Below, piece after piece: positions 26,086 to 41,414 of a stretch of DNA of 64,000 bases. The position numbers and the translations under genes are program-made. Source of the stretch: an uncultured Burkholderiaceae bacterium (GTDB taxonomy: Bacteria; Pseudomonadota; Gammaproteobacteria; Burkholderiales; Burkholderiaceae_C); contig CAYJLV010000022.1 in assembly GCA_964371405.1 (NCBI GenBank), forward strand, positions 1,227 through 65,226, in the 5' to 3' direction. Under the pieces are notes generated by a model. That model had not been told where the DNA came from and did no database searches. It saw nothing but the letters and a program-made list of their open reading frames with translations. Positions within the stretch are counted from its first letter, which is position 1; each line of letters starts with the position of its first letter.

Positions 26086-27117
26086 CTAGCGGATCGACGC
26101 GCAGGCCGACTGTCGCTGCGTCATCGACGGCAACTCGCCGAACTGGCGCTTGTACTCGGCCGAGAAGGCGCTCATGTGCCAGAAGCCCCAGCGCGCCGCG
26201 ATGTCGTGCACGGTGAAGTCGGCCCCGACCATGCGCTTGAGGTCGCGGCGCGCGCCGCACAGACGCACGGCGCGCAGATACTTGTGCGGAGAAAGGCCCA
26301 GCACGTCGCGAAAGCACAGTTCGAGCTTGCGCGGGCTGGTCCCGATCTGCTTGCAGACCTCCAGCGTCGTGAGCGGCCGGTCCGGCGTGCCCAGCACGAG
26401 TTCACAGGCGCGATCGACGATGCGCCGACGCGCCGCCACGCTGTGCAGGTCGCACAGCTCGATCGTCGACGGGATCGCCTCCAGCCATTCGACGAGCACG
26501 CTGTCGCGCAACTGGAGCGCCGTTTCGGGGATCTCCAGCAACGAAGGATCGGCCGCTATGGCCTCCAGCGCCCTCGAGTGCGCCGAGCGCGCGTAGCCGG
26601 CAGCCTTCGGCCGCGCCTGCACGACGACCTTGTGGTCCAGCCAGGTCGACCACGGCTTGTCGTAGAGCTGCTGCCACAGCGAACTGAGCAGGTCGGCGTC
26701 CACCACGATGGCGACCAGCAGCGAGTCCTGGCGCAGCGTCAGGTCCAGATCGTCGCCGCGGCCGATCAGGATGCTCTCGCCGTCGATGCGCTGGCCGTGG
26801 AAGTAGCCGTCGCCGGCCGGCGAATCGCAGATCGCGAACCCGATATGGCGCTCGCCGATCTGGCCGCGCTGCCGCGTCGCCTGACTCGCCGTTTCGCGGA
26901 CCAGCCGCAGGTCGGGCAGCTGGACGTGGCGCACCGCGGCCTTGAAGCGCCCCTGCGACAGCTGTTCGTAGCGCAGCTCCCAGCCGGCCTGCGCGGCCGC
27001 CAGCTCGTCGATGTCGTCGAGCTCGGCGGCGTGTGCCCAGGCCGGTGCAGCGGCGGCGGCCGACGGCTCCGCCGGCGCCGCTGCGGCATCGCTGGAGAGA
27101 GCGGGAAGGCTGGGCAT
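26086..27117 (-). CDS. AraC family transcriptional regulator (FeaR/AraC_binding_2-like N-terminus)
   Basis: C-terminal double HTH (TLEVCKQIGTSPRKLELCFR ... HDIAARWGFWHMSAFSAEYKRQFGELPS). Start set at ATG 27117. It is divergent from the DUF1329 operon. Confidence 0.85.
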   Translation of the reverse strand: MPSLPALSSDAAAAPAEPSAAAAAPAWAHAAELDDIDELAAAQAGWELRYEQLSQGRFKAAVRHVQLPDLRLVRETASQATRQRGQIGERHIGFAICDSPAGDGYFHGQRIDGESILIGRGDDLDLTLRQDSLLVAIVVDADLLSSLWQQLYDKPWSTWLDHKVVVQARPKAAGYARSAHSRALEAIAADPSLLEIPETALQLRDSVLVEWLEAIPSTIELCDLHSVAARRRIVDRACELVLGTPDRPLTTLEVCKQIGTSPRKLELCFRDVLGLSPHKYLRAVRLCGARRDLKRMVGADFTVHDIAARWGFWHMSAFSAEYKRQFGELPSMTQRQSACASIR

Positions 27118-27176
27118 GTTCACGTCCGGGAGGTGTCGCCGCACGGCAGTCGAAGTCGATTGCGGAGCCACGATGC

Positions 27177-27215
27177 GTGTTTACCCGAAAAGCGTTCTGC
27201 GGAGAATTGATAACG
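27177..27215 (+). promoter_or_regulatory. bipartite conserved motif, copy A (GTGTTTACCCGAA-N15-AATTGATAACG)
   Basis: Almost identical to nt 35353-35391. A -10-like TAAGGT lies 19 nt downstream (27235-27240). It sits in the AraC/DUF1329 divergent intergenic region. Confidence 0.6.
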
Positions 27216-27303
27216 ACCCGGATGCCTTGCCTCCTAAGGTCGCGGCTGTCGCTGTGCCCGGCCCGCGGGGGGCCGGGCAACCATCGCCCCAAGGAGATCA
27301 GGC

Positions 27304-28692
27304 ATGACGGCAAGCCGTTACTACATCCGACATCTGGCAGCGACGTTCGTCGCGCTGACCGTGGCGCAGGCCTGCATGGCGCAGGCTCGCGATGCGTCGC
27401 GCCTCGGCAAGGATCTGACCCTCGCGGGCGCCGAGCCGGCAGCCAACAAGGACGGCACGATCCCCGCGTTCGCGCCGGCCGACGCGCTGCTGCCGGGCTG
27501 GTCGGCGGGCAAGCGCCGCGCCGACTACTTCCGGCACGCGGGCGACAAGCCCCTCTACACGATCGACGCGGGCAACGTCGACCAGCACGCCGCCAAGCTG
27601 TCGCCCGGCCAGGTGGCGCTGATCAAGCAGATCAAGGGCTACCAGATGGAGGTCTACCCGAGCCGCCGGACCTGCGCCAACCCCGACTTCGTCGTCGAGA
27701 ACACCAAGAAGAACGTCGCCGTCGCCAAGCTCGGCGCCGACGGCTGGAGCCTGAAGGACGCGGTGCTGCCCGGCATCCCGTTCCCGATGCCGGCCAACGG
27801 CGCCGAGGCGATGTGGAACTACAAGCTCAAGTACGCGGGCATCGGCTACGAGTGGCCGCTGAACTGGATCGCGCTGTCGCCGCGCAAGGGCAGCAGCGAC
27901 TGGATCCGCGCCGGCGCGACGCAGACCTACTACTTCCCGTGGGGCAAGAAGGGCAGCACGCCGCTGGCGCAGCTGCCGCAGACCGAGTACTACACCTACT
28001 TCGCCTACGAGTCGCCGCCGGCGCTGGCCGGCCAGGCGCTGGTGGTCATCTACTACACCGACAAGCCGGGCGACACCTTCTACTACTTCCCGGGCCAGCG
28101 CCGCGTGCGCCGCATGCCGACGTATGCCTACGACGCCCCGCAGATCGGCTTCGAGAACCAGTACACCCTGGACGAGCCGCGCATGTTCAACGGCACCATG
28201 GACCGGTTCGACTGGAAGCTGGTCGGCAAGAAGGAGCTGCTGGTCGGCTACAACTCCTTCGGCATGTACGACCCCGCGGTCAAGCTCGACAGCGTGCTCA
28301 AGAACGACATGCTCGCGAGCGCAGCGCGCCGCTATGAGATGCATCGCGTCTGGGTGGTCGAGGCCACGGTCAAGAGCGGCGTGCGGCACGTGACGCCCAA
28401 GCGCACCTTCTATCTCGACGAGGACAGCTGGTCGATCATGGTCGCCGAGGACTACGACGCCCAGGGCAAGCTGTGGAAGGTGCGCGAGAGCTACGCCATC
28501 CCGGTGCACGAGACGGGAAGCTGCGACAACGCGGCCTTCGTCCAGTACAACGTGATCGACGGCCGCTACCTGTTCGATCAAAGCCCCCTGGGCGCAGGCA
28601 AGGACATGCGCTGGGTGGTCGAGTCCAAGGAGCCCAAGTTCAGCGAGGGCTTCTACACCGCAGACAACCTGCGTTCCATCAGCGAGCGCTGA
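27304..28692 (+). CDS. DUF1329 domain protein (LolA-like periplasmic or outer-membrane-associated)
   Basis: Signal peptide, then GKDLTLAGAEPAANKDGTIPAF and the rest typical of DUF1329. AAGGAGA RBS present. Confidence 0.85.
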   Translation: MTASRYYIRHLAATFVALTVAQACMAQARDASRLGKDLTLAGAEPAANKDGTIPAFAPADALLPGWSAGKRRADYFRHAGDKPLYTIDAGNVDQHAAKLSPGQVALIKQIKGYQMEVYPSRRTCANPDFVVENTKKNVAVAKLGADGWSLKDAVLPGIPFPMPANGAEAMWNYKLKYAGIGYEWPLNWIALSPRKGSSDWIRAGATQTYYFPWGKKGSTPLAQLPQTEYYTYFAYESPPALAGQALVVIYYTDKPGDTFYYFPGQRRVRRMPTYAYDAPQIGFENQYTLDEPRMFNGTMDRFDWKLVGKKELLVGYNSFGMYDPAVKLDSVLKNDMLASAARRYEMHRVWVVEATVKSGVRHVTPKRTFYLDEDSWSIMVAEDYDAQGKLWKVRESYAIPVHETGSCDNAAFVQYNVIDGRYLFDQSPLGAGKDMRWVVESKEPKFSEGFYTADNLRSISER

Positions 28693-28723
28693 AGCGCCAA
28701 CCCGCCCCCGAGGAGGAGACCCC

Positions 28724-30412
28724 ATGAAGCATTTCGCCCCTGCGCAGGGCGTTGCCCTCGCCTGCGCCGCGCTGTCCGCACTGGCGCCTGCCAGTTCGGT
28801 CGCCTTCACGTTCGAGACCGAGCAGATGAAGGGATCGTTCGATTCCACCATCACGCTGGGCACGGGCCGCCGGCTCAGCAATCAGAGCTGCGCGCTGCTC
28901 GGCACGCCCAACGCCGTCTGCGGTCCGGGCGACGTCAACCCGCTGACCTGGGCCGGCGCCGACGACGGCAACCTCAACTACAACAAGGGCGACCACTTCA
29001 CGACCTACCTGAAGGGCACGCACGAGCTGCTGCTCACGAGGCCCGCCGACGGCATCAAGTTCATGGGCCGGTTCAACTGGCTCAAGGACTTCACCGCCGA
29101 CGACACGCGCACCACGCCGCTCACGTCCGACGCCAAGAAGCAGATCGTCAACAACGTCAACCTGCTCGACCTGTGGGTCAGCAAGGACTTCAGGCTCGGC
29201 GACCAGTCGGGCCGCGTCAAGATCGGCAACCAGGTCATCAGCTGGGGCGAGAGCCTGTTCGCGCTGGGCGGCATCAACGCCACCAACTCCGTCGACCTGG
29301 TGCGCCTGTCCAACCCGGGCGTGCAGCTCAAGGAAGTGTTCCTGCCCGCGCCGATCGTCAGCGTGTCGAGCTCGCTGGCGACGGGCGTCAACTTCGAAGC
29401 GTACTACCAGCTCCACTGGAACCGCTACAAGTTCCCGCCGGCGGGCTCGTACTGGTCGCAGGGCGACATCTTCGACAAGGGCCGCGGCAACCTGCCGTTC
29501 CTCGACCCCGACAACGAGCCGCGCAACAGCGGGCAGTTCGGCGTCTCGTTGCGCTGGCGGCCCAAGAGCATCGACGCCGACTTCGGCATCTATGCGGTGA
29601 ACTATCACGACAAGACGCCCAATCTCGCCTACAGCACCGGCGCGACGGGGCAGCTGCAATGGAACTTCCTGCCCAACCGCAAGCTGTACGGCATCAGCGC
29701 CAACACGGCGCTCGGCGACTGGGCGCTCGGCGCCGAGCTGTCGTACCGGCCGAAGGATGCCGTCACGCTCACGGCGTGCGCCGATGCCGGCACCGGCGGC
29801 ACGGCTCAGGACTTCACGCCGACGGCGGCGCCGACGACGGCCTGCCCCGGCTGGATCGACAACAAGCGCTGGCAACTGCACCTCACCGGCCTGTACAGCC
29901 TGACGCCGAGCAACGCCGGCGGCTTCCTCGACCTCGTCGGCGCGCAGACCGGCACCTTCCTCGGCGAATTCGTCGTCATCCACTATCCCGGCATCAGCCA
30001 GGACAAGCTGGTCACGCGCACCGTCAACGGCGTCGCCGTCGAGCAGGCGGTGGCCGCGGGCCTGTGGTGGCTGCCGTCGTCGGGCGCCGGCGTGACGCGC
30101 GGCTTCGGCGACGCCACGTCGATGGGCTACATGTTCGACTTCAGCCTGGTCTACGACAGCACGCTGATCCCGGGCTGGCAGGTCGTCCCGGGCGTGTTCG
30201 TGCAGCACGCCGTCAAGGGCTCGACGCCGAGCTTCCTGGCCAACTGGCTCGAAGGTGCGAAGGCGGTCAACTTCTACGTCAACTTCGTGCAGAACCCGGC
30301 GACATGGCAGGCCGGCATCAACGTCGCCAAGTTCTTCGGCGGCAAGACGCCGACGCACCAGCCGCTGGGTGACCGCGACTTCATCGGCCTCTACCTGTCG
30401 CGCAACCTTTGA
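28724..30412 (+). CDS. DUF1302 domain protein (putative outer-membrane beta-barrel)
   Basis: Signal peptide, then FTFETEQMKGSFDSTITLGTG and a beta-rich sequence with a terminal aromatic residue, typical of DUF1302. Confidence 0.85.
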   Translation: MKHFAPAQGVALACAALSALAPASSVAFTFETEQMKGSFDSTITLGTGRRLSNQSCALLGTPNAVCGPGDVNPLTWAGADDGNLNYNKGDHFTTYLKGTHELLLTRPADGIKFMGRFNWLKDFTADDTRTTPLTSDAKKQIVNNVNLLDLWVSKDFRLGDQSGRVKIGNQVISWGESLFALGGINATNSVDLVRLSNPGVQLKEVFLPAPIVSVSSSLATGVNFEAYYQLHWNRYKFPPAGSYWSQGDIFDKGRGNLPFLDPDNEPRNSGQFGVSLRWRPKSIDADFGIYAVNYHDKTPNLAYSTGATGQLQWNFLPNRKLYGISANTALGDWALGAELSYRPKDAVTLTACADAGTGGTAQDFTPTAAPTTACPGWIDNKRWQLHLTGLYSLTPSNAGGFLDLVGAQTGTFLGEFVVIHYPGISQDKLVTRTVNGVAVEQAVAAGLWWLPSSGAGVTRGFGDATSMGYMFDFSLVYDSTLIPGWQVVPGVFVQHAVKGSTPSFLANWLEGAKAVNFYVNFVQNPATWQAGINVAKFFGGKTPTHQPLGDRDFIGLYLSRNL

Positions 30413-30420
30413 ACGAGCGC

Positions 30421-32805
30421 ATGCCGTCGCCCACGTCCTCGTCGGCCTGGACGACGGCCATCGCGCGCGCCGAGGAGTTCTGCTTCTCGCGCCGGGCGCT
30501 CGTGCTCGGCGTGTTGCTGGCGCTGACCGCCGTCATGGGCTGGTTCGCGCTGCAGCTGCGCATGGACGCGGGCTTCGAGAAGCAGATGCCGCTCGGCCAC
30601 GAGTACGTGCGGACGTTCGACGCCTACCGCAACGACGTGCTGGGAGCGAACCGGCTCAACATCGTCGTGCGCGCGCGTGAGGGCGCGATCTGGACCACGG
30701 CCGGGCTCAAGCGGCTGCACGACGTGACGCAGGCCGTCACCTACCTGCCCAATGTCGACCGGCTCGGCGTGCAGTCGCTGTGGACGTCCAACACCTTCGT
30801 CAACGAGATCACCGAGGAGGGATTTCGCGCCGATCCGCTGATCGCCGGCACGATCACGCCCGAGCAGCTCACCACGGCGTCGATCGCAGGCATCCGCCAG
30901 GCCGCCAGCCAGGGCGGCTTCATCGGCACCCTCGTCTCGCGCGACGAAGCCGGCGCCATGGTGGTGGCCGAGCTCGCCGAGACCGGCGGCGACGGCCAGC
31001 GCCTCGACTACGTCGCCTACAACCGCCTGCTCGAACAGGAGATCCGCGCCCGCTTCGAGGACGCCGACTTCGAGATCCAGATCATCGGCTTCGCCAAGCA
31101 GATCGGCGACATCGCCGACGGCGCCGCGGCCGTGCTGCAGTACTGCGCGATCGCGATGGCGCTCACGGCGCTGGCGGTGTACTGGTACTGCCGCTCGATC
31201 GCGTTCACCGTGCTGCCCATCGCCTGCTCGCTGGCCTCGCTCGTCTGGCAGTTCGGCACGCTGCGCCTGCTCGGCTTCGGCCTCGATCCGCTGGCCGTGC
31301 TGGTGCCGTTCCTCGTCTTCGCCATCGGCGTGTCGCACGGCGTGCAGCAGATCAACTTCATCGTGCGCGAGCTGGCGCGCGGACGCACCACGATGCAGGC
31401 CTGCCGCGCCAGCTTCACGGGCCTGCTGATCCCCGGCACGCTGGCCCTCGTGACGGCCTTCGTCACGTTCATCACGCTGCTGGTGATCCCGATCCCGATG
31501 GTGCGCGAGCTGGCGATCACCGCGGCGCTGGGCGTGGCCTACAAGATCGTCACCAACCTCGTCATGCTGCCGGTCGCGGCGTCGTACGTCCGCGTCAGCG
31601 ACGACTGGGCGCGGCGCGCGATGGCCATCAACGACCGGCGCGCCGGCTGGCTGCGCCCGGTGGCTGCGCTGGCGCAGCCGCGGCGCGCCGCGTGGACGCT
31701 GGCCGTGGTCGCCGTCGTCTTCGCCGCAGCGGTATGGCAAAGCAGCGACCGCGTCGTCGGCACGCTGCAGCCGGGCGCGCCCGAGCTGCGGCCCGAGGCG
31801 CGCTTCAACCGCGACGCCGTTTCGATCGCAGGCAGCTTCGACACCGGTCTCGACTGGCTGACCGTGGTGTTCGAGTCGCCGCCGAACTCGTGCGAGAACC
31901 CGTCCGTCGGCGTGTGGCAGGACGAGTTCGTCTGGCAGATGACGCCGGTCGAAGGCGTGCAGTCGGTCGTGTCGTTCGCCGGGCAGATGCGCCTGTTCAA
32001 CGAGGGCTACAACGAAGGCCATCCGAAGATGTCCGTCGTGCCGATCGATCCCGGCAACTACTCGGCGCTGGCCGCCGAGATCGGCCGCACGCGCGGCATG
32101 ATGCGCGGCGACTGCAGCATGGCGGCGGCGCACCTGTTCCTCGCCGACCACAAGGCGACGACGATCAATCGCGTGATCGACTCCGTGAAGCACTTTCGCG
32201 AGGAGCACCCGCTGCCCGGCTCGACGATCCGGCTCGCCTCGGGCAACGCCGGCGTGCTGGCCGCCGTCAACGACGAAGTGCACCGCAGCGAGCTGCCGAT
32301 GATGCTGTACGTCTATGCCGCCATCGTGCTGCTGGTGGCGCTGGTGTACCGCGACCTGCGCGCCGTGCTGACCTGCTGCCTGCCGCTGACCGTCGGCACC
32401 TTCATCGGCTACTGGTTCATGAAGTCGCTCGAGATCGGCCTCACCGTGGCGACGCTGCCGGTGATGGTGCTGGCCGTGGGCATCGGCGTCGACTATGCGT
32501 TCTACATCTACAACCGGCTGCAGCTGCACCTCGCGCACGGCCAGCCGATCGTCAAGGCGATCGAGCACTCGATCCTCGAAGTCGGCGCGGCGACGATCTT
32601 CACCGCGTTCACGCTGGCCATCGGCGTGGCCACCTGGTCGTTCTCGGAGCTCAAGTTCCAGGCCGACATGGGCAAGCTGCTGGCCTTCATGTTCATGGTC
32701 AACATGGTGCTGGCGATGACGGCGCTGCCCGCCTTCGCCGTGTGGCTGGATCGGCTCTTCCCGCGGCGCGGACCAGTGCATGCGCCCGGGCTGCTGGCGC
32801 ACTGA
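30421..32805 (+). CDS. RND-superfamily (MMPL/HpnN-like) transporter
   Basis: About 794 aa with two 6-TM bundles, each preceded by a large loop. An alternative TTG start at 30409 overlaps the DUF1302 stop. Confidence 0.85.
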   Translation: MPSPTSSSAWTTAIARAEEFCFSRRALVLGVLLALTAVMGWFALQLRMDAGFEKQMPLGHEYVRTFDAYRNDVLGANRLNIVVRAREGAIWTTAGLKRLHDVTQAVTYLPNVDRLGVQSLWTSNTFVNEITEEGFRADPLIAGTITPEQLTTASIAGIRQAASQGGFIGTLVSRDEAGAMVVAELAETGGDGQRLDYVAYNRLLEQEIRARFEDADFEIQIIGFAKQIGDIADGAAAVLQYCAIAMALTALAVYWYCRSIAFTVLPIACSLASLVWQFGTLRLLGFGLDPLAVLVPFLVFAIGVSHGVQQINFIVRELARGRTTMQACRASFTGLLIPGTLALVTAFVTFITLLVIPIPMVRELAITAALGVAYKIVTNLVMLPVAASYVRVSDDWARRAMAINDRRAGWLRPVAALAQPRRAAWTLAVVAVVFAAAVWQSSDRVVGTLQPGAPELRPEARFNRDAVSIAGSFDTGLDWLTVVFESPPNSCENPSVGVWQDEFVWQMTPVEGVQSVVSFAGQMRLFNEGYNEGHPKMSVVPIDPGNYSALAAEIGRTRGMMRGDCSMAAAHLFLADHKATTINRVIDSVKHFREEHPLPGSTIRLASGNAGVLAAVNDEVHRSELPMMLYVYAAIVLLVALVYRDLRAVLTCCLPLTVGTFIGYWFMKSLEIGLTVATLPVMVLAVGIGVDYAFYIYNRLQLHLAHGQPIVKAIEHSILEVGAATIFTAFTLAIGVATWSFSELKFQADMGKLLAFMFMVNMVLAMTALPAFAVWLDRLFPRRGPVHAPGLLAH

Positions 32806-32818
32806 GGAGGGACGGATC

Positions 32819-33823
32819 GTGCGCCCGTTTGCCCGCACCGCGGTCGTCGACACCGCGAGGTTCGCAGCGACACTGCTGCTGTCGTGCGCTGCGGGTGCGT
32901 CCCAAGGCGTTGATGTGCCGCCGACGCTGCAGCCGCATCCTGCGGCCGTCGTCGCGCATGCGTCGCATGCGGCGCTGCTCGGCGCCGCGCGCGCCGGGGC
33001 CCGCATGGTCGCCGTCGGCGACCACGGCGTCGTGCTGCTGTCCGACGACGGCGGCCGGCAGTGGCGGCAGGCCCGCGCCGTGCCCGTGAGCTCGACGCTC
33101 ACGTCGGTGAGCTTCGCCGACGATCGGCACGGCTGGGCCGTCGGCCACTGGGGCGTCGTACTCGCGACGCGCGACGGCGGCGAGACGTGGGAGATCACCC
33201 GCATCGACGCGAGCGTGGACCGCCCGCTGTTCGCCGTGCATGCCTTCGACGCGCAGCACCTGGTCGCGGTCGGGCTGTGGTCGCTGGTGCTGACCAGCGC
33301 CGACGGCGGCCGCAGCTGGTCGACCGTGCCGCTCCCGCCGCCGCCCGCCGCCGACGGCCGCACCGGCGGCAAGGCCGACCTCAACCTGTTCGGCCTGGCC
33401 GTGGACGACCGCGGCGTCCTGTACGCCGCCGGCGAGCGCGGCATGGTGCTGCGCTCGACCGATCGCGGCGCCCGCTGGACCTATCTGCCCACCGGCTACA
33501 AGGGTTCGTTCTGGTCGGTGGCATCGCCCGCTGCCGGCGTGGTCGTCGCCGCGGGGCTGCGCGGCTCGATCTACCGCAGCGCCGACGACGGCAAGAGCTG
33601 GTCGCGCGTCGAAAGCCACGGCAAGTCGTCGATCACGGCTCTCGTGCGCGACGGCAGCGAACTGCTCGCGCTGGGCCTGGACGGACTCCTGCTGCGCAGC
33701 GCCGAACACGGCGCGGGCTTCGTCGCCGCGCCGCGCAGCGACCGTGCCGCACTCACCGCTGCGCTGCCGCGCGCCGAAGGCGGCCCCGTGCTGTTCTCGC
33801 GCGGCGGCGTGGTCAAGGACTGA
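32819..33823 (+). CDS. BNR/Asp-box repeat protein (Ycf48/photosystem II stability factor-like beta-propeller)
   Basis: Repeated Asp-boxes (TRDGGETW, SADGGRSW, STDRGARW, SADDGKSW). GTG 32819 has GAGGAG about 8 nt upstream. Confidence 0.8.
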   Translation: MRPFARTAVVDTARFAATLLLSCAAGASQGVDVPPTLQPHPAAVVAHASHAALLGAARAGARMVAVGDHGVVLLSDDGGRQWRQARAVPVSSTLTSVSFADDRHGWAVGHWGVVLATRDGGETWEITRIDASVDRPLFAVHAFDAQHLVAVGLWSLVLTSADGGRSWSTVPLPPPPAADGRTGGKADLNLFGLAVDDRGVLYAAGERGMVLRSTDRGARWTYLPTGYKGSFWSVASPAAGVVVAAGLRGSIYRSADDGKSWSRVESHGKSSITALVRDGSELLALGLDGLLLRSAEHGAGFVAAPRSDRAALTAALPRAEGGPVLFSRGGVVKD

Positions 33824-33860
33824 CGCGCTGCGCGACCCGCATCGAAAGGAAACGCCACTC

Positions 33861-35315
33861 ATGAAGTATCCCCCTCTGGCGCTCCACGTGGCAGGCAGCT
33901 GGCTGCCGCGCGCCTCGGGTGGCGAGCGCTTCGTCATCGGCCCGGCCGACGAGACGCCGCTGGCGACGCTGCCGCTGGCCGGCGCCGCCGAGCTGGCCGC
34001 AGCCGCTGAATCCGCGCAACGCGGATTCGCCGCCTGGCGTCGCCGCAGCGCCCACGACCGCTACGCCATCCTGCGCACCGCGGCCGAGCTGATGCGCCAG
34101 CGCTCCGACCGGATCGCGTCGGTGCTCACGCTGGAGCAAGGCAAGCCGCTGGCCGAGGCGACGCGCGAGGTCAAGCTGTCGGCCGACATCCTCGACTTCC
34201 AGGCCGAAGAGGGCAAGCGCGTGTACGGCCGCACGGTGGCGCCGCGCGCCGAAGGCATCCTGACGCAGACCGTGACGCGCCGGCCCGTGGGCCCCGTCGC
34301 CGCATTCACGGCGTGGAACTTTCCGGTCAACCTGCCGGTGCGCAAGCTCGCGAGCGCGCTGGCCGCCGGCTGCAGCGTCGTGATCAAGCCCGACGAGCAG
34401 ACGCCGGCGACGTGCATGCTGATCGTGCAGGCCTTTCTCGATGCCGGCGTGCCGGCCGACGCGATCAACATGGTGTGCGGGGAGCCGGCCGAGGTGTCGT
34501 CGACACTGATCGCGCATCCGGCGATCGCCAAGGTGTCGATCACCGGCTCGGTCGCGGTGGGCAAGCTGCTCGGCGAACAGGCGGCGCGCCACGTCAAGCG
34601 CTTCACCGGCGAACTCGGCGGGCACGCGCCCGTGATCGTCGCCGACGACATGTGCGACAGCGCGTCGCTCGCCTTCGTGCTCAAGAGTTCGCTGACGGCC
34701 AAGTTCCGCAACGCGGGGCAGGTGTGCGCGTCGCCGATCCGCTTTTTCCTGCCGCGCCGCCACCTTGCGGCTTTCGCCGAGCAGTTCGCGCTCGGCGCGC
34801 AGCAGTTGCGTCTGGGGCCGGGCACCGATCCGCAGACGCAGATGGGGCCGCTGGCGCACGCCCGACGCATCGACGACATGGAGCGCTTCGTCGACGACGC
34901 GGTCGGCTGCGGCGCGCGGCTGCTGACCGGCGGACACCGGCTCGACCGGCCGGGCTACTACTTCGAGCCGACCGTCTTCGCCGACGCACCGCCGGAATGC
35001 CGGCTGATGCGCCAGGAGCCGTTCGGTCCGATCGCCGTGCTGCAGCCCTACGACACGCTCGACGCGGCCATCGCCACGGCGAACGCCCTGCCCTATGGCC
35101 TGGGCGCCTACGGCTTCACGCGTGACCTGCACACCGCGCACCGCCTCGCCGACGAAATCGAGGCCGGCATGGTGGGTATCAACAGCTATGGCGTCTCGCA
35201 ACCCGAGATGCCGTTCGGCGGCTGCAAGGAGAGCGGCATCGGCCACGAGATGGGCGCCGAAGGCATCCTGCACTACACCGAGATCAAGACCGTCACGATC
35301 GGCGTTCCGGGATAA
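33861..35315 (+). CDS. NAD(P)-dependent aldehyde dehydrogenase
   Basis: FTGELGGHAP and catalytic Cys context NAGQVCASP. 484 aa. ATG 33861 lies within ORF 33744-35315. Confidence 0.9.
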   Translation: MKYPPLALHVAGSWLPRASGGERFVIGPADETPLATLPLAGAAELAAAAESAQRGFAAWRRRSAHDRYAILRTAAELMRQRSDRIASVLTLEQGKPLAEATREVKLSADILDFQAEEGKRVYGRTVAPRAEGILTQTVTRRPVGPVAAFTAWNFPVNLPVRKLASALAAGCSVVIKPDEQTPATCMLIVQAFLDAGVPADAINMVCGEPAEVSSTLIAHPAIAKVSITGSVAVGKLLGEQAARHVKRFTGELGGHAPVIVADDMCDSASLAFVLKSSLTAKFRNAGQVCASPIRFFLPRRHLAAFAEQFALGAQQLRLGPGTDPQTQMGPLAHARRIDDMERFVDDAVGCGARLLTGGHRLDRPGYYFEPTVFADAPPECRLMRQEPFGPIAVLQPYDTLDAAIATANALPYGLGAYGFTRDLHTAHRLADEIEAGMVGINSYGVSQPEMPFGGCKESGIGHEMGAEGILHYTEIKTVTIGVPG

Positions 35316-35352
35316 GCGTTTCGCAGTTCGGCGGTCTCGCCCGCCACCCCCG

Positions 35353-35391
35353 GTGTTTACCCGAAGCCCATCGTTCGGGGAACTGATAACG
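35353..35391 (+). promoter_or_regulatory. bipartite conserved motif, copy B (GTGTTTACCCGAA-N15-AACTGATAACG)
   Basis: 23 of 24 specified positions are identical to copy A, with the same 15-nt spacer. A -10-like TATCGT lies 19 nt downstream (35411-35416). Confidence 0.6.
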
Positions 35392-35452
35392 GTCTTGCAG
35401 GCGGCGCGCCTATCGTTTGCACTGTTCCGCAGCCCACCTTCGCGACGCACGC

Positions 35453-36820
35453 ATGAGCCCCGATCGAGACGCCCTCAAGCGCGACAACGCGCAGTTCATC
35501 TGGCACCCGATGGCGCACCCCGGTGCGATGAAGAAGAACGGGCCCGACATCATCGCGCGCGGCGAAGGCTGCTGGATCTGGGACGTCGACGGCCACAAGA
35601 TGCTCGACGGCGTGGGCGGGCTGTGGGCCAGCAACCTCGGCCACAGCAACCGGCGCGTGCGCGACGCCATCGTGGCGCAGCTCGACGAGCTGCCGTTCTA
35701 CAACGTGTTCCGCGGCACCAGCCATGTGCGCGCCATCGAGCTGTCGACGCGGCTCGTGGGCATGATGGCGCCCGAGCAGGTCGGCGCTGTGATGTTCTCC
35801 ACCGGCGGCAGCGATGCCGTCGAAGGTGCGCTCAAGATCGCCCGGCAGTACTGGAAGCTGCGCGGCCAGGCCGACCGCACCAAGTTCATCAGCCTGCGTC
35901 AGGGCTACCACGGCGTGCATTTCGGCGGCATGAGCATCAACGGCAACACCAGCTTCCGCCGCGCGTATGAGCCGCTGCTTCCGGGCTGCTTCCACGTCGA
36001 CACGCCCTGGCTGTACCACAACCCCTATACCGACGACCCGGAGCAGCTGGGCCGCATCTGCGCCGAACTGCTCGAGCGCGAAATCGTGTTCCAGGGGCCC
36101 GACACGGTGGCCGCCTTCATTGCCGAGCCCATCCAGGGCGCCGGCGGCGTGATCGTGCCGCCCCCCAATTACTGGCCCCTGGTGCGCCAGATCTGCGACA
36201 AGCACGGCGTGCTGCTGATCGCCGACGAAGTCGTCACCGGGTTCGGCCGCGCCGGCGCGCTGTTCGGCACGCGGCTGTGGGGCATCAATGCCGACATCTG
36301 GTGCCTGGCCAAGGGCATCAGCTCGGGCTACGTCCCGCTCGGCGCCACCGCCATCGGCAGCAAGGTCGCCGAAGTGTTCGACGCCGATGCCAGCGGCGCC
36401 GGCACGGTGACGCACGGCTACACCTACAGCGCGCATCCGGTGGCGGCGGCGGCGGCGCTGGCCACGCTCGAACAGATCGAGGAACTCGACATCCCGGGCC
36501 ACGCGGCCCGCGTCGGCGCGCACCTGCACCAGCGGCTGGCCGGCTTCGTCGACAAGTTCGGCGTCGTCGGCGACTTGCGCGGGCGCGGCCTGATGGCCGG
36601 CATCGAGATGGTCGCCGACAAGGCGCGGCGCGTCCCGATGCCGCGCAGCAGCGACGTGCCATCGCGCGTCGCGCGCGAAGCCTACCGGCGCGGCCTGATG
36701 GTGCGCATCTCGGGGCCGAACCTGATCCTGTCGCCGCCGCTCGTGATCACGCTCGAGGAGGTGGACTTCATGGTCGACGTGCTCGACGCCAGCTTCGCCG
36801 CCGTGCAGGCTACGCTGTGA
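35453..36820 (+). CDS. class III (omega) aminotransferase, PLP-dependent
   Basis: GGLWASNLGH, DEVVTGFGRAG and the PLP-Lys context WCLAKGISSGY. Start set at ATG 35453, downstream of the predicted -10. Confidence 0.9.
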   Translation: MSPDRDALKRDNAQFIWHPMAHPGAMKKNGPDIIARGEGCWIWDVDGHKMLDGVGGLWASNLGHSNRRVRDAIVAQLDELPFYNVFRGTSHVRAIELSTRLVGMMAPEQVGAVMFSTGGSDAVEGALKIARQYWKLRGQADRTKFISLRQGYHGVHFGGMSINGNTSFRRAYEPLLPGCFHVDTPWLYHNPYTDDPEQLGRICAELLEREIVFQGPDTVAAFIAEPIQGAGGVIVPPPNYWPLVRQICDKHGVLLIADEVVTGFGRAGALFGTRLWGINADIWCLAKGISSGYVPLGATAIGSKVAEVFDADASGAGTVTHGYTYSAHPVAAAAALATLEQIEELDIPGHAARVGAHLHQRLAGFVDKFGVVGDLRGRGLMAGIEMVADKARRVPMPRSSDVPSRVAREAYRRGLMVRISGPNLILSPPLVITLEEVDFMVDVLDASFAAVQATL

Positions 36821-36843
36821 CGGCTCGCAACGAAGGGATTCCC

Positions 36844-38211
36844 ATGATCGGCAAGCAGCCTGCGGCTTCGGCCGGCCTCGGCTTCAGCGCCCTGTTCGCC
36901 GCGGCCGTCGGCGTGATCGTGGCGCAGATCAGCATGGCCAGCTCGGCGCAGGGCATCGGCATCGGCGGTTGGGGCTTCGTGGCCGCGCTGGTGATCGCCT
37001 TCGCGCTGTCGATGGCCAACGCGCTGGCCTATGCCGAGATGTCGCTGATGATGCCCAGCCAGGGCAGCCTGTCGAGCTTCGCCGAGGCGGCGATCGGCAA
37101 CTTCCCGGCCATCATGCTGGTCTTCGCCGGCTACGTGACGCCGGCGATGTTCGGCCTGCCCGCCGAGCTGATCCTGGCCGACCAGATCCTCACGCAGACG
37201 GTCCCGCTGCCGCTGCCCAAGCACTTCTGGCCGGTGGCCCTGGTGGTGCTGTTCGCGGTGCTCAACATCCTCGGCACCGACGTGTTCGCGCGCGTGCAGA
37301 CGGCGCTGAGCTTCGTCGTGCTGCTGTTCCTGGGGGTCACCGGGGTGCTGGCGCTGTCGGGCGGCGCCGCCACGGCGCCCGACGCCGCGGCGGGCCTGGC
37401 GCAGCTCGCGCAGGGGACGACGGTGCTCAGCCTGGTGGCGCTCGCCTTCTGGGTGTTCGCCGGCATCGAGTTCGTCACGCCGCTGGTGACGGAAGCACGC
37501 GACGCGCGGCGCGACCTGCCGCGCGCCATGGTGCTGGGGCTGGTGACGCTGCTCGCGGTGCAACTCGTGTTCGTGCTCGGCGCCGCGGCGCTCGCGCCGC
37601 GCGACAAGCTCGCCGCCGCACCGACGCCGCATCTGGACGTGGCGATGGCCGTGTACGGCCCGGGCGCGAAGGTGTTCGTCGCGGTGCTGGCGCTGCTGGC
37701 TTCGGCCAGCCTCATCAACACCGTGCTGGCCGCCGTGCCGCGCATGCTCGCCGGCATGGCCGACAACGGCCAGGTGTTCCCGCTGCTGAAGTACCGCCAC
37801 CCGACGCGCGGCACGCCCGTCGTCGCCATCGTCTTCGTCGCGGCGCTGCCGCTGGTCGGCCTGTTCTGGTCCGGCGGCAATGTCGAGTCGATCCTGCCGC
37901 TGATGGTGGCGGCCTCGGTGGCCTGGCTGATGGCGTACATCATGGCGCAGGTGTCGCTGATCGTGCTGCGCGGCCGCCATGCGTCGATGGCGCGGCCGTT
38001 TCGCGTGCCCGGCTATCCCGTCGTGCCCGCGCTGGCGATCGCCGGCATGGTGTTCGTCATCGCCAACAGCTCGCCGGCGCCCGAGCTGACGCGCCCGATC
38101 GTCACCTACACCGGCGTCGTTCTGGCCGTGTTCGCGCTGGTCGGTGCAGTGTGGGTCAAGCTCGTCATGAAGAAGGGCCTGTTCGAGCCCGTGAAGCCGC
38201 ACGTCGGCTGA
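36844..38211 (+). CDS. APC family amino acid/amine permease
   Basis: About 455 aa with 12 predicted TM segments and an APC-like N-terminus (AYAEMSLMMPSQGS). ATG 36844 lies within ORF 36277-38211. Confidence 0.85.
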   Translation: MIGKQPAASAGLGFSALFAAAVGVIVAQISMASSAQGIGIGGWGFVAALVIAFALSMANALAYAEMSLMMPSQGSLSSFAEAAIGNFPAIMLVFAGYVTPAMFGLPAELILADQILTQTVPLPLPKHFWPVALVVLFAVLNILGTDVFARVQTALSFVVLLFLGVTGVLALSGGAATAPDAAAGLAQLAQGTTVLSLVALAFWVFAGIEFVTPLVTEARDARRDLPRAMVLGLVTLLAVQLVFVLGAAALAPRDKLAAAPTPHLDVAMAVYGPGAKVFVAVLALLASASLINTVLAAVPRMLAGMADNGQVFPLLKYRHPTRGTPVVAIVFVAALPLVGLFWSGGNVESILPLMVAASVAWLMAYIMAQVSLIVLRGRHASMARPFRVPGYPVVPALAIAGMVFVIANSSPAPELTRPIVTYTGVVLAVFALVGAVWVKLVMKKGLFEPVKPHVG

Positions 38212-38227
38212 CGTCGGCGATCTCGTC

Positions 38228-39487
38228 ATGACCCGCGCAGTTCCCCGCATCCTGATCATCGGCACCGTCGACACCAAGCGCGACGAGATCGACTTCCTGT
38301 GCCGCAGCGTCGAGCACTGCGGCGGCGAGGCGCTCGTGATGGACGTCGGCGTGCTGGACGCGGGCGGCATCGCGGCCGCCATTGCGAACACCGAAGTCGC
38401 GGCGGCGGCCGGCGTCACGCTGCAGCAGCTGATCGACAGTGGCGACGAGAACTCGGCGATGGCAGCGATGGCGCGCGGCGCCTCGGCGCTCGCGCTGCAG
38501 TGGCACACCGCCGGCCGCTACGACGGCCTGCTGGCGCTCGGCGGCACGATGGGTACCGACCTCGCGCTCGACGTGGCGCAGGCGCTGCCGCTGGGCGTGC
38601 CCAAGGTCGTGCTGTCGACGATCGCCTACTCGCACCTCGTGCCGCCCGACCGCGTGCCGCCCGACCTGATCATGCGCCTGTGGGCGGGCGGGCTGTACGG
38701 CCTGAACCGCCTGTGCCGCAACGCGCTGGCGCAAGCCGCCGGGGCGGCGGTGGGGGCCTGCCTGGCGCGTGTCGACGAGGTCGATGCCGACGGCGCGCCG
38801 CGCCCGGTCGTCGGCATGACCTCGCTCGGCTCGAGCGTGCTGCGCTACATGAAGCTGCTCAAGCCCGCGCTCGAGCAGCGCGGCTACGAGCTCGCCGTGT
38901 TCCACACCACGGGCATGGGCGGGCGCGCGTTCGAAGAGCTGGCCGCGCGCGGCTGGTTCGTCGCCGTGATGGACTTCAGCCTCCAGGAACTCGTCAACCA
39001 CATGGGCGGATCCTGCGTGACGGCGGGCGCCGACCGGTTGCGCAGCGCGGGGCGCGCCGGCATCCCGCAGATCGTCGCGCCGGGAGCCACCGACATGATC
39101 GACTACGCGACCTGGTCGAGCTGCCCGAGCCGCTTCGAGGGCCGCCCCACGCACGCCCACAACCGCCTGATCGCGTCGGTGTGCATCGATGCGCCGATGC
39201 GCCGCGAAGTGGCGCGCGAGATCGCCGCGCGGCTGGCCGAGTCGCGTGGGCCGGCCTGCGTGCTGCTGCCCGTACAGGGCATCGAGGAATGGGACCGCCC
39301 CGGCCAGCCGCTGCACGATCCCGAAGGCCTGGCGGCGCTCGTCGACGAGTTGCCGCGCCATCTGGGCGGTGCGACGCAGCTCGAGCGGCTCGACGCGCAC
39401 ATCAACGACGATGCCTTCGCGCAGGCGGCGCTGCGCGTGTTCGATGATTGGGTCGAGCGCGGCCTGATCCCGCGAGGCCGGTCATGA
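38228..39487 (+). CDS. UPF0261 / Tm-1-like ATP-binding domain protein
   Basis: [17 protein letters not shown] ... LGGTMGTDL ... VLSTIA resembles the UPF0261 family. Confidence 0.8.
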
Positions 39488-40164
39488 CGCAGGCGCTGGT
39501 GCTCGACTTCGGCGGCGTGATCACGCGCACGCTGTTCGAGACGCACGCGGCGAGCGAGGCCGCGCTCGGGCTGCCGCCGGGCACGCTCGCGTGGCGCGGC
39601 CCGTTCGACCCGGAACACGACGCGCTGTGGCGCGACATGCAGGCCGACCGGATCTCGGAACGCGACTACTGGATGGCGCGCACGCGAGAAGTCGGCCGGC
39701 TCGTCGGCGAAGACTGGGACCGCATGGAGACCTTCGTGCAGCGCGCCCGCGGCGCCGACGTCGAGACCGTGATCCGGCCCGAGGCCGTCGCTGCGATCGA
39801 CGCAGCAAGCGCTGCGGGCTGCAAGCTGGCGCTGCTGTCCAACGAGCTGGACCTGTTCTACGGGCAGGGCTTTCGCGAGCGGCTGCCGTTGCTGCGCGAT
39901 TTCGACGTCGTCGTCGACGCGACCTACACCCACATCCTCAAGCCGGACCCACGCGCCTACCGCGCTTGCCGGGAACAACTCGGCGTGCCGGCGGACGCCT
40001 GCGTCTTCATCGACGACCAGCAGCGCAACGTCGACGGCGCCTTGCGCGAAGGCTGGCGCGCCGTGTACCTCGACGTGCGCTCGCCGGGCCGCGCCTTCGC
40101 GCAGGCGCTCGCGCTGCTCGGCGTCGACGCGCCCGAAGCGCTGATCGACCACACCACCCCATGA
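39484..40164 (+). CDS. HAD superfamily hydrolase
   Basis: Motif [10 protein letters not shown], motif III K in ILKPD, motif IV FIDDQ. Its ATG overlaps the upstream stop (ATGA). Confidence 0.8.
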
Positions 40165-41414
40165 AGATCGCGATCCTCGGCAGCGGCGTCATCGGAACGA
40201 CCGCGGCCTGGTACCTCGCGCGCGACGGCCACGAGGTCATCGTCATCGATCGGCAGGACGGCGTGGCGCTCGAAACGAGCTTCGCCAACGCGGGCGAAGT
40301 GTCGCCCGGCTACTCGGCGCCGTGGGCCGGCCCGGGCGTGCCGCTCAAGGCGATCCGCTGGCTCATGATGCGTCACCGCCCGCTGGTGATCCGACCGGCG
40401 CTCGACGCCGCGATGTGGCGCTGGGGCTGGGCGATGCTGCCCAATTGCACACAGGCGCGCTACCGCGTCAACAAGGCGCGCATGCTGCGGCTGGCCGAGT
40501 ACAGCCGCGACTGCCTGGTCGCGTTGCGCGCCGACACCGGCATCCGCTACGACGAGCGCAGTCGAGGCACGCTGCAACTGTTCCGCACACATAAGCAGCT
40601 CGACGCAACGGCCAAGGACATCGAGATCCTGAGCCGCTTCGGCGTCCCCTTCGAACTGCTCGACCGCGATGGATACGTCGAGCACGAGCCGGCGCTGGCG
40701 CGCGTGCGCGACAAGTTCGTCGGCGCGCTGCGCCTGCCCGGCGACGAGACGGGCGACTGCCACAAGTTCAGCCAGGCGCTGGCCGAGCGGGCGCAAGGCC
40801 TCGGCGTGCAGTTCCGCTTCGGCACGCACATCCGCGCACTCGCGAGCGACGGCCAGGCCGTCACGTCGGTCGAGACTGACGCGGGGCCGGTGCGGGCCGA
40901 CCGCTACCTCGTGGCCCTCGGCAGCCACTCGACCCCGATGCTGGCGCGGCTGGGCGTGCGGCTGCCGGTGTACCCCGTCAAGGGCTACTCGATCACCGTG
41001 CCGATCACCGACGCGGCGGGCGCGCCCGAATCGACCGTGATGGACGAGACGCACAAGGTCGCCGTCACGCGGCTGGGCGATCGCATTCGCGTCGGCGGCA
41101 CGGCCGAACTGGCGGGCTATGACCTGGCGCTGGACCCGGCGCGCCGGCGCACGCTCGAGTTCGTCGTCGGCGACCTGTTCCCGCACGGCGGCGACATCGC
41201 GAACGCCGAGTTCTGGACCGGCCTCAGGCCGATGACGCCCGACGGCACGCCCATCGTCGGCCCGACCCGGCTCGCCAACCTGTGGCTCGCCACCGGCCAC
41301 GGCACGCTGGGCTGGACGATGGCCACCGGAACGGGCCGCCTGCTGTCGCACTGGATGACGGGGCGCGAGCCCGACATCGACACCGAAGGGCTGGCGCTCG
41401 AACGGTACGCGTGA
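40161..41414 (+). CDS. dadA: D-amino acid dehydrogenase small subunit
   Basis: [32 protein letters not shown] is a FAD-binding fold, and DadA-like sequence runs throughout. Its ATG overlaps the HAD stop. Confidence 0.9.

What the first reader, a model, noticed from the sequence alone, without database searches (positions are those of the whole stretch)
27177..27215. 39-bp bipartite motif shared almost exactly by two promoters 8 kb apart (copy A, AraC/DUF1329 divergent region)
GTGTTTACCCGAA-N15-AATTGATAACG at 27177-27215 recurs as GTGTTTACCCGAA-N15-AACTGATAACG at 35353-35391. Of the 24 specified positions 23 are identical, and the 15-nt spacer length is the same. In both copies a -10-like hexamer (TAAGGT at 27235, TATCGT at 35411) follows exactly 19 nt later. 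This places the TGATAACG block over the -35 position, which is the usual arrangement for AraC/XylS-type class II activation. The only regulator nearby is the divergent AraC-family gene (26086-27117). The motif therefore links the DUF1329/DUF1302/RND/BNR/ALDH operon and the aminotransferase operon into one putative regulon.
Basis: seen in the sequence. Interest (0 to 1): 0.6.

Follow-up and report, generated by a model that had tools for sequence, protein, structure and literature searches.

The report
Shared operator of an AraC-type regulator
The two near-identical 39-bp motifs are real and are almost certainly the DNA-binding site of the neighbouring AraC-type regulator, which puts an envelope-transport/aldehyde dehydrogenase operon and an aminotransferase operon under one switch; this is an ordinary, if previously undescribed, bacterial regulon.

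Summary
GTGTTTACCCGAA-N15-AAYTGATAACG occurs at 27177-27215 and 35353-35391, and each copy is followed 19 nt later by a -10-like hexamer. These are the only two copies in the 4.2-Mb genome.

It is not a dispersed repeat. A weight matrix built only from sites upstream of orthologous regulators in other genera ranks these two sites first and second in the whole genome (41 and 34 bits; the next is 21.6).

The motif is really a three-block site of about 40 bp: G.g.T.ACCC, then a gap, then TGCGCA, then N5, then GATAACG. A TAnnnT hexamer follows 18 nt later. This geometry is kept across orthologs sharing 43-86% identity, whatever gene lies downstream (DUF1329, ALDH, deacetylase, amidase, GATase, permease).

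The strict core occurs only in family genomes that carry the regulator (3 of 18, against 0 of 383).

The best reading is an operator for the divergent EutR-like AraC/XylS protein that overlaps the -35 region, giving class-II-type activation of an amine/amide catabolic regulon. Copy B is a genus-specific internal promoter.

Binding, transcription start sites and the inducer are all inferred, not shown. This is a new member of a known kind, of modest interest.

The parts
27177..27215 (+). Operator copy A, in the 186-bp divergent region between the regulator gene and the DUF1329 gene. Blocks: TGTTTACCCGAA, TGCGGA, TTGATAACG.
   Evidence: PWM score 34.0 bits, second best in the genome. Identical in the same-genus genome G003 except for one base.
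35353..35391 (+). Operator copy B, in the 137-bp gap between the ALDH stop (35315) and the aminotransferase ATG (35453).
   Evidence: PWM score 41.0 bits, best in the genome. In G003 the blocks and the -10 are kept, while the spacer and upstream flank differ.
27235..27240 (+). -10-like hexamer TAAGGT of promoter A. The inferred transcription start is near 27247.
   Evidence: A TAnnnT hexamer lies at this fixed offset in the 28-site alignment. The start site is not mapped.
35411..35416 (+). -10-like hexamer TATCGT of promoter B. The inferred transcription start is near 35423.
   Evidence: The same CCTATCGT occurs at the same offset in L012, L013 and L015.
26086..27117 (-). EutR-like AraC/XylS-family regulator (343 aa): cupin-like N-terminal domain, helical linker and C-terminal double HTH.
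   Evidence: Pfam HTH_18 at residues 255-336. NCBIfam EutR model aligned over residues 29-336, but at 132 bits against a cutoff of 319. AF2 model with pLDDT 89.5. Foldseek hits to ToxT, CuxR and Rns. The ATG at 27117 is supported by frame-breaking indels just upstream in G003.
27304..33823 (+). DUF1329 (27304-28692), DUF1302 (28724-30412), HAE3/MMPL-type RND (30409-32805) and BNR/Ycf48-like (32780-33823): an AmeABCD-like envelope quartet forming the first genes of operon A.
   Evidence: Pfam and NCBIfam. Literature on the quartet.
33861..35315 (+). NAD(P)-dependent aldehyde dehydrogenase, the last gene of operon A. The likely start is the ATG at 33861, which has a Shine-Dalgarno-like AAGGAAA; the mechanical ORF starts at 33744.
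   Evidence: Pfam Aldedh. Ortholog matches start at residues 23-40. Start-codon scan.
35453..41414 (+). Operon B: class-III omega-aminotransferase (35453-36820), APC amino-acid permease (36844-38211), UPF0261 (38228-39487), HAD hydrolase (39484-40164) and D-amino-acid dehydrogenase (40161-41414).
   Evidence: The nearest solved relatives of the aminotransferase are amine:pyruvate omega-transaminases 5LH9 and 6S54.

Best explanation
The two motifs are operators for the divergently encoded EutR-like AraC/XylS-family regulator (26086-27117).

The full site is about 40 bp with three contact blocks: G.g.T.ACCC, then about 11 nt, then TGCGCA, then N5, then GATAACG. Its promoter-proximal GATAAC block lies at about -38 to -33. 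That is 18-19 nt upstream of a TAnnnT -10 hexamer, at promoters that lack a usable -35.

The regulator has a cupin-like sensor domain that presumably binds an amine or amide substrate, or a derivative of one. When loaded, it would occupy the site and recruit RNA polymerase (class-II-type activation) at two promoters:
- PA drives DUF1329-DUF1302-RND-BNR-ALDH.
- PB is an internal promoter that boosts aminotransferase-permease-UPF0261-HAD-DadA.

Because copy A starts only 60 bp from the regulator's own ATG, it probably also autoregulates.

What is shown:
- the motif is unique in the genome;
- it is conserved, with its geometry, upstream of orthologs;
- it co-occurs with the regulator.

What is inferred:
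- binding by this protein;
- activation rather than repression;
- the transcription start sites;
- the identity of the inducer.
For: - **Uniqueness.** Only two copies exist in the genome.
- **Same genus.** G003 keeps both copies. At copy B the blocks and the -10 are conserved while the spacer and flank diverge; the region is 79% identical overall and carries a 24-bp indel.
- **Other genera.** Orthologous regulators (43-66% identity) in Piscinibacter, Sphaerotilus, Rhizobacter, Rhodoferax, Aquabacterium, Curvibacter and others carry the motif in the divergent promoter with the same 29-bp register between box 1 and box 2. This holds whether the first gene is DUF1329, ALDH, an HDAC-like deacetylase or something else.
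- **Cross-validation.** A PWM trained on 15 sites from other genera scores copy B at 41.0 and copy A at 34.0 bits. These are the top two of 8.4 million positions; the third is 21.6 and the rest are 10 or less.
- **Untrained sites.** Further sites appear beside untrained orthologs and as second sites in the same loci.
- **Specificity.** 1.1 Mb of loci that hold only distant homologs (37% identity or less) reach at most 13.2 bits.
- **Co-occurrence.** The strict core ACCC-N11-TGCGC-N6-GATAAC is found in 3 of 18 regulator-bearing family genomes, in 0 of 383 without the regulator, and 0 times for the reversed control.
- **-10 element.** A TAnnnT hexamer is conserved at a fixed offset, and nothing between it and the site is conserved.
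- **Promoter and terminator scans.** No consensus sigma-70 promoter or terminator is found in either gap.
- **Regulator architecture.** It has the canonical AraC layout.
- **Coherent function.** Genes behind the sites in relatives are ALDH, class-III aminotransferase, amidase, Amidohydro_3, HDAC-like, GATase/Peptidase_C26, permease and binding proteins, all consistent with amine/amide catabolism.
Against: - There are no binding, expression or transcription-start data.
- The two halves of the site are not an obvious 21-bp direct repeat like araI or the XylS sites, so the stoichiometry and orientation of binding are unknown.
- A site overlapping -35 could equally serve a repressor.
- The middle TGCGCA block is degenerate in this genus.
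- 5 of the 27 loci with orthologs or paralogs of the regulator lack a hit of 20 bits or more. One of them is cut by a contig end.
Confidence: 0.8

Rival explanations
1. The same protein binds the same site but acts as a repressor. By occupying the -35 region it would block RNA polymerase until an inducer releases it.
For: The site overlaps the -35 region, which is also a classic repressor position. Copy A lies within 60 bp of the regulator's own start codon, so negative autoregulation is plausible in any case.
Against: Neither promoter has a recognisable -35 hexamer at 16-18 nt from the -10. This is typical of activator-dependent promoters. From established knowledge, AraC/XylS members with sites abutting -35 are overwhelmingly activators. 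The site extends about 40 bp upstream of the promoter rather than over the -10 or +1.
Confidence: 0.1
2. The motif is recognised by a different factor, such as another transcription factor or an alternative sigma factor, and its position next to the AraC gene is coincidental.
For: No binding data exist. GATAAC resembles half of a Fur-type hexamer, and AAC...CGT is reminiscent of ECF promoters.
Against: The regulator ortholog is the only gene constantly adjacent to the site across loci whose other genes differ. The motif is absent from family genomes that lack the regulator, from the two same-genus genomes without it, and from loci of distant homologs. A global factor would have more than 2 sites per genome. 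The distance from AAC to CGT is 22 nt, and many orthologous sites do not keep CGT (TAAGGT, TAGCAT). This does not fit an ECF promoter.
Confidence: 0.06
3. The motif is a non-functional duplicated segment, a dispersed repeat or an RNA element.
For: The two copies are almost identical in 24 positions. Copy B contains a CCCGAA/TTCGGG inverted repeat that can fold (-11.2 kcal/mol).
Against: - There are only two copies in the genome.
- Identity is confined to discrete blocks, with unrelated spacer and flanks.
- The blocks are conserved across genera at orthologous promoters.
- Copy A has no comparable fold (z = +1.1) and Rfam has no match.
Confidence: 0.02

Closest known systems
EutR, the AraC-family activator of the eut ethanolamine operon in E. 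coli and Salmonella
   Same: It is the closest named family. The NCBIfam EutR model aligns over nearly the whole protein, residues 29-336, at E = 1.9e-38. Both proteins sit next to catabolic genes for a small amine, and EutR is an activator (established knowledge).
   Different: The score of 132 bits is far below the equivalog cutoff of 319, so this protein is not EutR. There are no eut genes here. The target genes are an envelope quartet, an ALDH and an omega-aminotransferase. The operator defined here has not, to my knowledge, been described for EutR.
XylS at Pm, AraC at araI1-I2 and RhaS at rhaBAD (class-II AraC/XylS activation)
   Same: The site is about 40 bp, runs from about -70 to about -32 and overlaps the -35 region of a promoter with a poor -35. 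The regulator has an N-terminal cupin-like sensor and a C-terminal double HTH.
   Different: Those sites are two clear direct-repeat half-sites with 21-bp periodicity (established knowledge). Here the distal block (T.ACCC) and the proximal blocks (TGCGCA-N5-GATAAC) are not evidently repeats of one another.
AmeABCD of Castellaniella defragrans and PP_0765/0766 plus PP_2018/2019 of P. putida (the DUF1302/DUF1329/BNR/RND quartet)
   Same: Operon A has the same four protein families. The literature links the quartet to hydrophobic substrates such as monoterpenes, Tween 20 and fatty esters.
   Different: In P. putida the DUF1302/DUF1329 pair is thought to be under a LuxR-type regulator. Here the quartet is fused in one operon with an ALDH, and shares an AraC-type operator with an aminotransferase operon.

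Membership tests
AraC/XylS family of transcription regulators | C-terminal DNA-binding domain of about 100 aa with two helix-turn-helix motifs | tested here: met
   Pfam HTH_18 at residues 255-336, 80.5 bits against a cutoff of 33.6. The AF2 model has seven helices over 251-340. Foldseek matches isolated AraC DNA-binding domains 3oio, 3mn2 and 3mkl with TM 0.76-0.86 normalised to the target.
AraC/XylS family of transcription regulators | N-terminal ligand-binding/dimerisation domain of cupin/jelly-roll type (present in the sugar- and effector-responsive subgroup) | tested here: inconclusive
   The model shows a beta-rich domain at 27-140 followed by long helices. Full-length hits to ToxT, CuxR and Rns have probability 1.0 but TM of only 0.27-0.36. 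There is no Pfam match for residues 1-250.
EutR (NCBIfam NF007522 equivalog) | Score above the curated equivalog cutoff | tested here: not met
   132.5 bits against a cutoff of 319. The protein is a homolog of EutR, not EutR itself.
Class-II activator-dependent promoter | Activator site abutting or overlapping the -35 element relative to a mapped transcription start | not testable with these tools
   The position is inferred only from the conserved TAnnnT hexamer 18-19 nt downstream.
Class-II activator-dependent promoter | Weak or absent -35 hexamer | tested here: met
   No sigma-70 promoter-like pair was found in 27050-27330 or 35250-35480.
Transcription-factor operator (as opposed to a dispersed repeat) | Few copies per genome, conserved at orthologous promoters, co-occurring with the factor | tested here: met
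   Two copies per genome. Conserved upstream of orthologs. The strict core is present only in regulator-bearing genomes: 3 of 18 against 0 of 383.
DUF1302/DUF1329/RND/BNR (AmeABCD-like) envelope quartet | All four families adjacent and co-directional | tested here: met
   PF07044, PF06980, MMPL/HAE3 and BNR/PSII_BNR lie at 27304-33823.

The most novel reading that the evidence does not exclude
The shared operator means that the enigmatic DUF1329-DUF1302-RND-BNR envelope system is co-induced with an omega-aminotransferase, an ALDH, a permease and DadA by one amine-sensing regulator. On this reading, the quartet in this lineage handles a hydrophobic or bulky amine or amide substrate, such as a long-chain alkylamine, an omega-amino fatty acid or an acylated polyamine. 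That substrate would then be transaminated to an aldehyde and oxidised to an acid. This would give the first regulator- and inducer-based handle on what this widespread quartet actually transports.
Probability: 0.25. Interest if true: 0.55.

Novelty: new member of a known kind. Interest (0 to 1): 0.33.

Why it matters
- It gives a defined operator consensus and a small, testable regulon for an uncharacterised EutR-like AraC subfamily that is scattered through the Burkholderiales.
- It supports the downstream ATG at 35453 as the aminotransferase start.
- It shows how an internal promoter was added within one genus.
- It ties the DUF1329/DUF1302/RND/BNR quartet, whose function is still debated (efflux, esterase or envelope export), to amine/aldehyde catabolism through a shared switch. 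A reporter on either promoter could therefore be used to screen for the inducer, and so for the quartet's substrate class.

This is useful annotation-level knowledge, not a new principle.

Tried and rejected
- **Dispersed repeat.** Rejected: only two copies genome-wide.
- **RNA element.** Rejected: no Rfam match in 26900-35700 at E of 1 or less, and the two copies share no fold.
- **ECF or sigma-54 promoter.** Rejected on spacing and on the lack of conserved CGT or GG-N10-GC in the alignment.
- **Recent duplication of copy A as the origin of copy B.** Not supported: the flanks and spacer are unrelated. Piscinibacter defluvii, with the same six-gene order, has only a 45-bp ALDH-aminotransferase gap and one site.
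- **21-bp direct-repeat half-site structure.** Looked for in the 28-site alignment and not seen.
- **Third regulon member.** The only other genomic hit (contig C43:31227, 21.6 bits) has CGACAC in place of GATAAC, and its G003 homolog scores below 8 bits. It was not accepted as a target.
- **Literature.** Searches for a characterised ortholog or a published operator found nothing relevant. The 'EutR' hits were matches to 'eutropha'.
- **Pfam on the N-terminal 250 residues.** No family was found.

Full report
**Observation.** GTGTTTACCCGAA-N15-AATTGATAACG lies at 27177-27215 and GTGTTTACCCGAA-N15-AACTGATAACG at 35353-35391. Both are on the + strand, with 23 of 24 specified positions identical. 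TAAGGT (27235-27240) and TATCGT (35411-35416) follow 19 nt later. With up to three mismatches the pattern matches only these two places in the window and none in 100 shuffles. The window belongs to a 4.23-Mb, 70% G+C draft genome. A scan of that genome allowing spacers of 13-17 nt and up to five mismatches returns only these two sites. The 9-mer TGTTTACCC occurs nowhere else in it.

**Gene context.** The relevant genes are as follows.
- 26086-27117 (-): a 343-aa AraC/XylS protein. It has HTH_18 at residues 255-336, and the NCBIfam EutR model aligns over residues 29-336 but far below its cutoff.
- Operon A: DUF1329 (27304-28692), DUF1302 (28724-30412), an HAE3/MMPL-type RND protein (30409-32805), a BNR/Ycf48-like protein (32780-33823) and an aldehyde dehydrogenase (probable ATG 33861, stop 35315).
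- A 137-bp gap containing copy B.
- Operon B: a class-III omega-aminotransferase (ATG 35453-36820), an APC permease (36844-38211), UPF0261 (38228-39487), a HAD hydrolase (39484-40164) and a D-amino-acid dehydrogenase (40161-41414).
- Upstream of the regulator lie gshA (24168-25685) and a LysR gene (23132-24085). An earlier first-reader note (e1-3003883, not tested here) places the LysR gene divergent from iorA.

Frame-breaking indels between this genome and its congener just upstream of 27117 show that the ATG there, and not the GTG at 27171, is the regulator's start. The divergent intergenic region is therefore 186 bp.

**Same-genus comparison.** Of the three other genomes in the genus, only one (G003, a Burkholderiaceae MAG) has the regulator, at 86% identity. 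The same genome is the only one with the motif, and it has both copies. Region A is 93% identical overall, so it says little. Region B is only 79% identical and carries a 24-bp indel. Even so, CCCCGGTGTTTACCCGAAG, GTTCGG-GAACTGATAAC and GCGCGCCTAT-GT are preserved while the spacer is rewritten. This is the pattern expected of protein-contact blocks plus a -10 element.

**Orthologous loci.** A scan of the species-representative genome collection and of 400 family genomes found orthologs of the regulator (43-66% identity). They occur in Piscinibacter defluvii, Sphaerotilus, Rhizobacter, Rhodoferax, Aquabacterium, Curvibacter and several unnamed genera. The gene divergent from the regulator varies between them:
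- the DUF1329 quartet in L011, L014, L018 and L090;
- ALDH-aminotransferase-UPF0261 directly in L013, L015 and L016;
- an HDAC-like deacetylase in L012;
- a GATase/Peptidase_C26 protein in L092, L095, L097, L098, L100 and L089, by sequence similarity; Pfam was run on the L092 representative only;
- a beta-lactamase-fold hydrolase in L017.

In almost all of these loci the divergent promoter carries the same element in the same orientation. The distance between the TTTACCC-type block and the GATAAC block is an invariant 29 bp.

**Site structure.** An alignment of 28 sites shows conservation confined to four elements:
- G.g.T.ACCCga;
- TGCGCaaa.ctGATAACGc;
- 18 unconserved nucleotides;
- tA...T.

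Nothing is conserved upstream of the first block. The site is therefore tripartite and about 40 bp long. Counting from a start 7 nt after the -10, it spans roughly -70 to -32, and GATAAC lies at about -38 to -33.

**Cross-validation and controls.**
- A weight matrix was built from 15 sites, 14 from other genera and one upstream of the 53% paralogue in same-genus G003 (L009); none came from this genome or from the orthologous locus in G003. It scores copy B at 41.0 bits and copy A at 34.0 bits. These are the two best of all positions in the genome. The third hit is 21.6 bits and every other hit is 10 or less.
- The same matrix finds untrained sites beside further orthologs (L092, L096, L098-L100, at 26-36 bits). 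It also finds second sites within L012, L014, L015, L093, L097 and L098, so regulons with two promoters are common in this family.
- In 69 loci (1.1 Mb) that hold only distant homologs (37% identity or less) the best score is 13.2 bits.
- The strict core ACCC-N11-TGCGC-N6-GATAAC occurs in 3 of the 18 family genomes that have an ortholog and in none of the 383 that lack one. The reversed control gives no hits. My own hypergeometric arithmetic puts this at about 8e-5.

The regulator gene is the only constant neighbour of the site. This is the standard comparative-genomic argument that the regulator binds it.

**Promoter logic.** Neither intergenic region contains a consensus sigma-70 -35/-10 pair, and there is no intrinsic terminator after the ALDH gene. 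A conserved -10 without a -35, with an activator-type site overlapping the -35 position, is the architecture of class-II AraC/XylS activation (established knowledge for AraC, XylS and RhaS). The absence of a terminator means PB is best seen as an internal promoter added to a unit that can also be read through from PA. Piscinibacter defluvii has the same six-gene order but only 45 bp between ALDH and aminotransferase, and a single site. Copy B is therefore a gain specific to this genus. Because A and B share nothing outside the contact blocks, their near-identity reflects constraint by one protein rather than a recent duplication.

**The regulator.** An AlphaFold2 model built on 23 homologs (pLDDT 89.5) shows three parts: a beta-rich N-terminal domain (27-140), long helices (141-243) and the double-HTH domain (251-340). 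Foldseek returns full-length AraC proteins (ToxT, CuxR, Rns, CsvR) with high probability but low TM scores, and isolated AraC DNA-binding domains with TM 0.76-0.86. No Pfam family covers the N-terminal 250 residues. The protein is thus a canonical two-domain AraC protein from an uncharacterised, EutR-related subfamily.

**Likely physiology.** The aminotransferase's nearest solved relatives are amine:pyruvate omega-transaminases (5LH9, 6S54). Genes behind the operator in other genera encode ALDH, class-III aminotransferase, amidase, Amidohydro_3, an HDAC-type deacetylase, GATase/Peptidase_C26, an APC permease and periplasmic binding proteins. The common theme is uptake and catabolism of amines or amides. 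The inducer is unknown. The DUF1302/DUF1329/BNR/RND quartet has been linked to monoterpene tolerance (AmeABCD, PMC6394551) and to growth on Tween 20 and fatty esters (bioRxiv 10.1101/2020.07.04.188060). Its co-regulation with amine catabolism here suggests a hydrophobic amine or amide substrate. That is speculation.

**Rivals.**
- A repressor mode cannot be excluded without expression data (about 0.1).
- A different binding factor is unlikely, given the co-occurrence and the two-sites-per-genome count (about 0.06).
- A repeat or RNA element is excluded in practice: there is no Rfam match and no shared fold.

**Limits.** Binding, activation, start sites and inducer are inferences. The half-site organisation is unresolved, since no 21-bp direct repeat is evident.

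**Verdict.** The finding is a new operator and regulon for an uncharacterised member of a very well known kind of regulator. It is of modest interest, chiefly as a handle on the DUF1329/DUF1302 quartet.

Noticed in passing
own genome contig C43:31227-31272 (-), outside the window; homolog L105:1639-1700: This is the only other PWM hit in the genome (21.6 bits): GGGCTTACCC...CTGCGCG...TCGACACCG followed by CCTAGACT at the -10 offset. It lies between a D-threonine-aldolase-like gene and an IclR gene that is followed by Liv-type ABC transporter genes. The blocks GGGCTTACCCGCGA, CTCGACACCG and CCTAGACT are conserved in G003. The geometry is the same as the operator but GATAAC is replaced by CGACAC. 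It may be the operator of a related regulator, or a weak cross-talk site.
   Followed up: partly
window 27255-27279: A 10-bp G+C-rich stem-loop (GCCCGGCCCG cgggg GGCCGGGC) lies in the inferred 5' UTR of the DUF1329 gene and has no U-tract. It is identical in G003. Piscinibacter (L011) has a different-sequence hairpin, CCGGCC-N7-GGCCGG, at the same place. It could be a 5' mRNA-stabilising or translation-modulating element. Its fold z-score is unremarkable (-1.05).
   Followed up: partly
window 33744-33861 and 30409-30421: The mechanical ORF starts are probably too far upstream. The ALDH gene most likely starts at the ATG at 33861 (Shine-Dalgarno AAGGAAA; ortholog matches begin at residues 23-40), not the GTG at 33744, which would overlap the BNR gene by 80 nt. 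The RND gene may start at the ATG at 30421 rather than the TTG at 30409.
   Followed up: partly
L014:8770-9800: In this MAG, about 1 kb carrying a MarR-like gene on the opposite strand lies between the operator and promoter and the DUF1329 gene. The operon there may therefore be under dual control or have been rearranged.
   Followed up: no
G312 (contigs C34, C35, C46); L012:5664; L093:1426: Several relatives have two or three operators. G312 has three strict-core sites on three contigs. L012 has a second site before a Peripla_BP_6 gene. L093 has one site on each side of the regulator gene (APC permease and ALDH). Regulon size varies between genera.
   Followed up: partly
window 26086-41414: The whole regulator-plus-operons locus is accessory. 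Two of the four genomes of the genus (G001, G002) lack both the regulator and the motif. More distant EutR-like AraC homologs (about 35% identity; L022, L024, L026) also sit within a few kb of DUF1329 clusters but lack this operator.
   Followed up: partly
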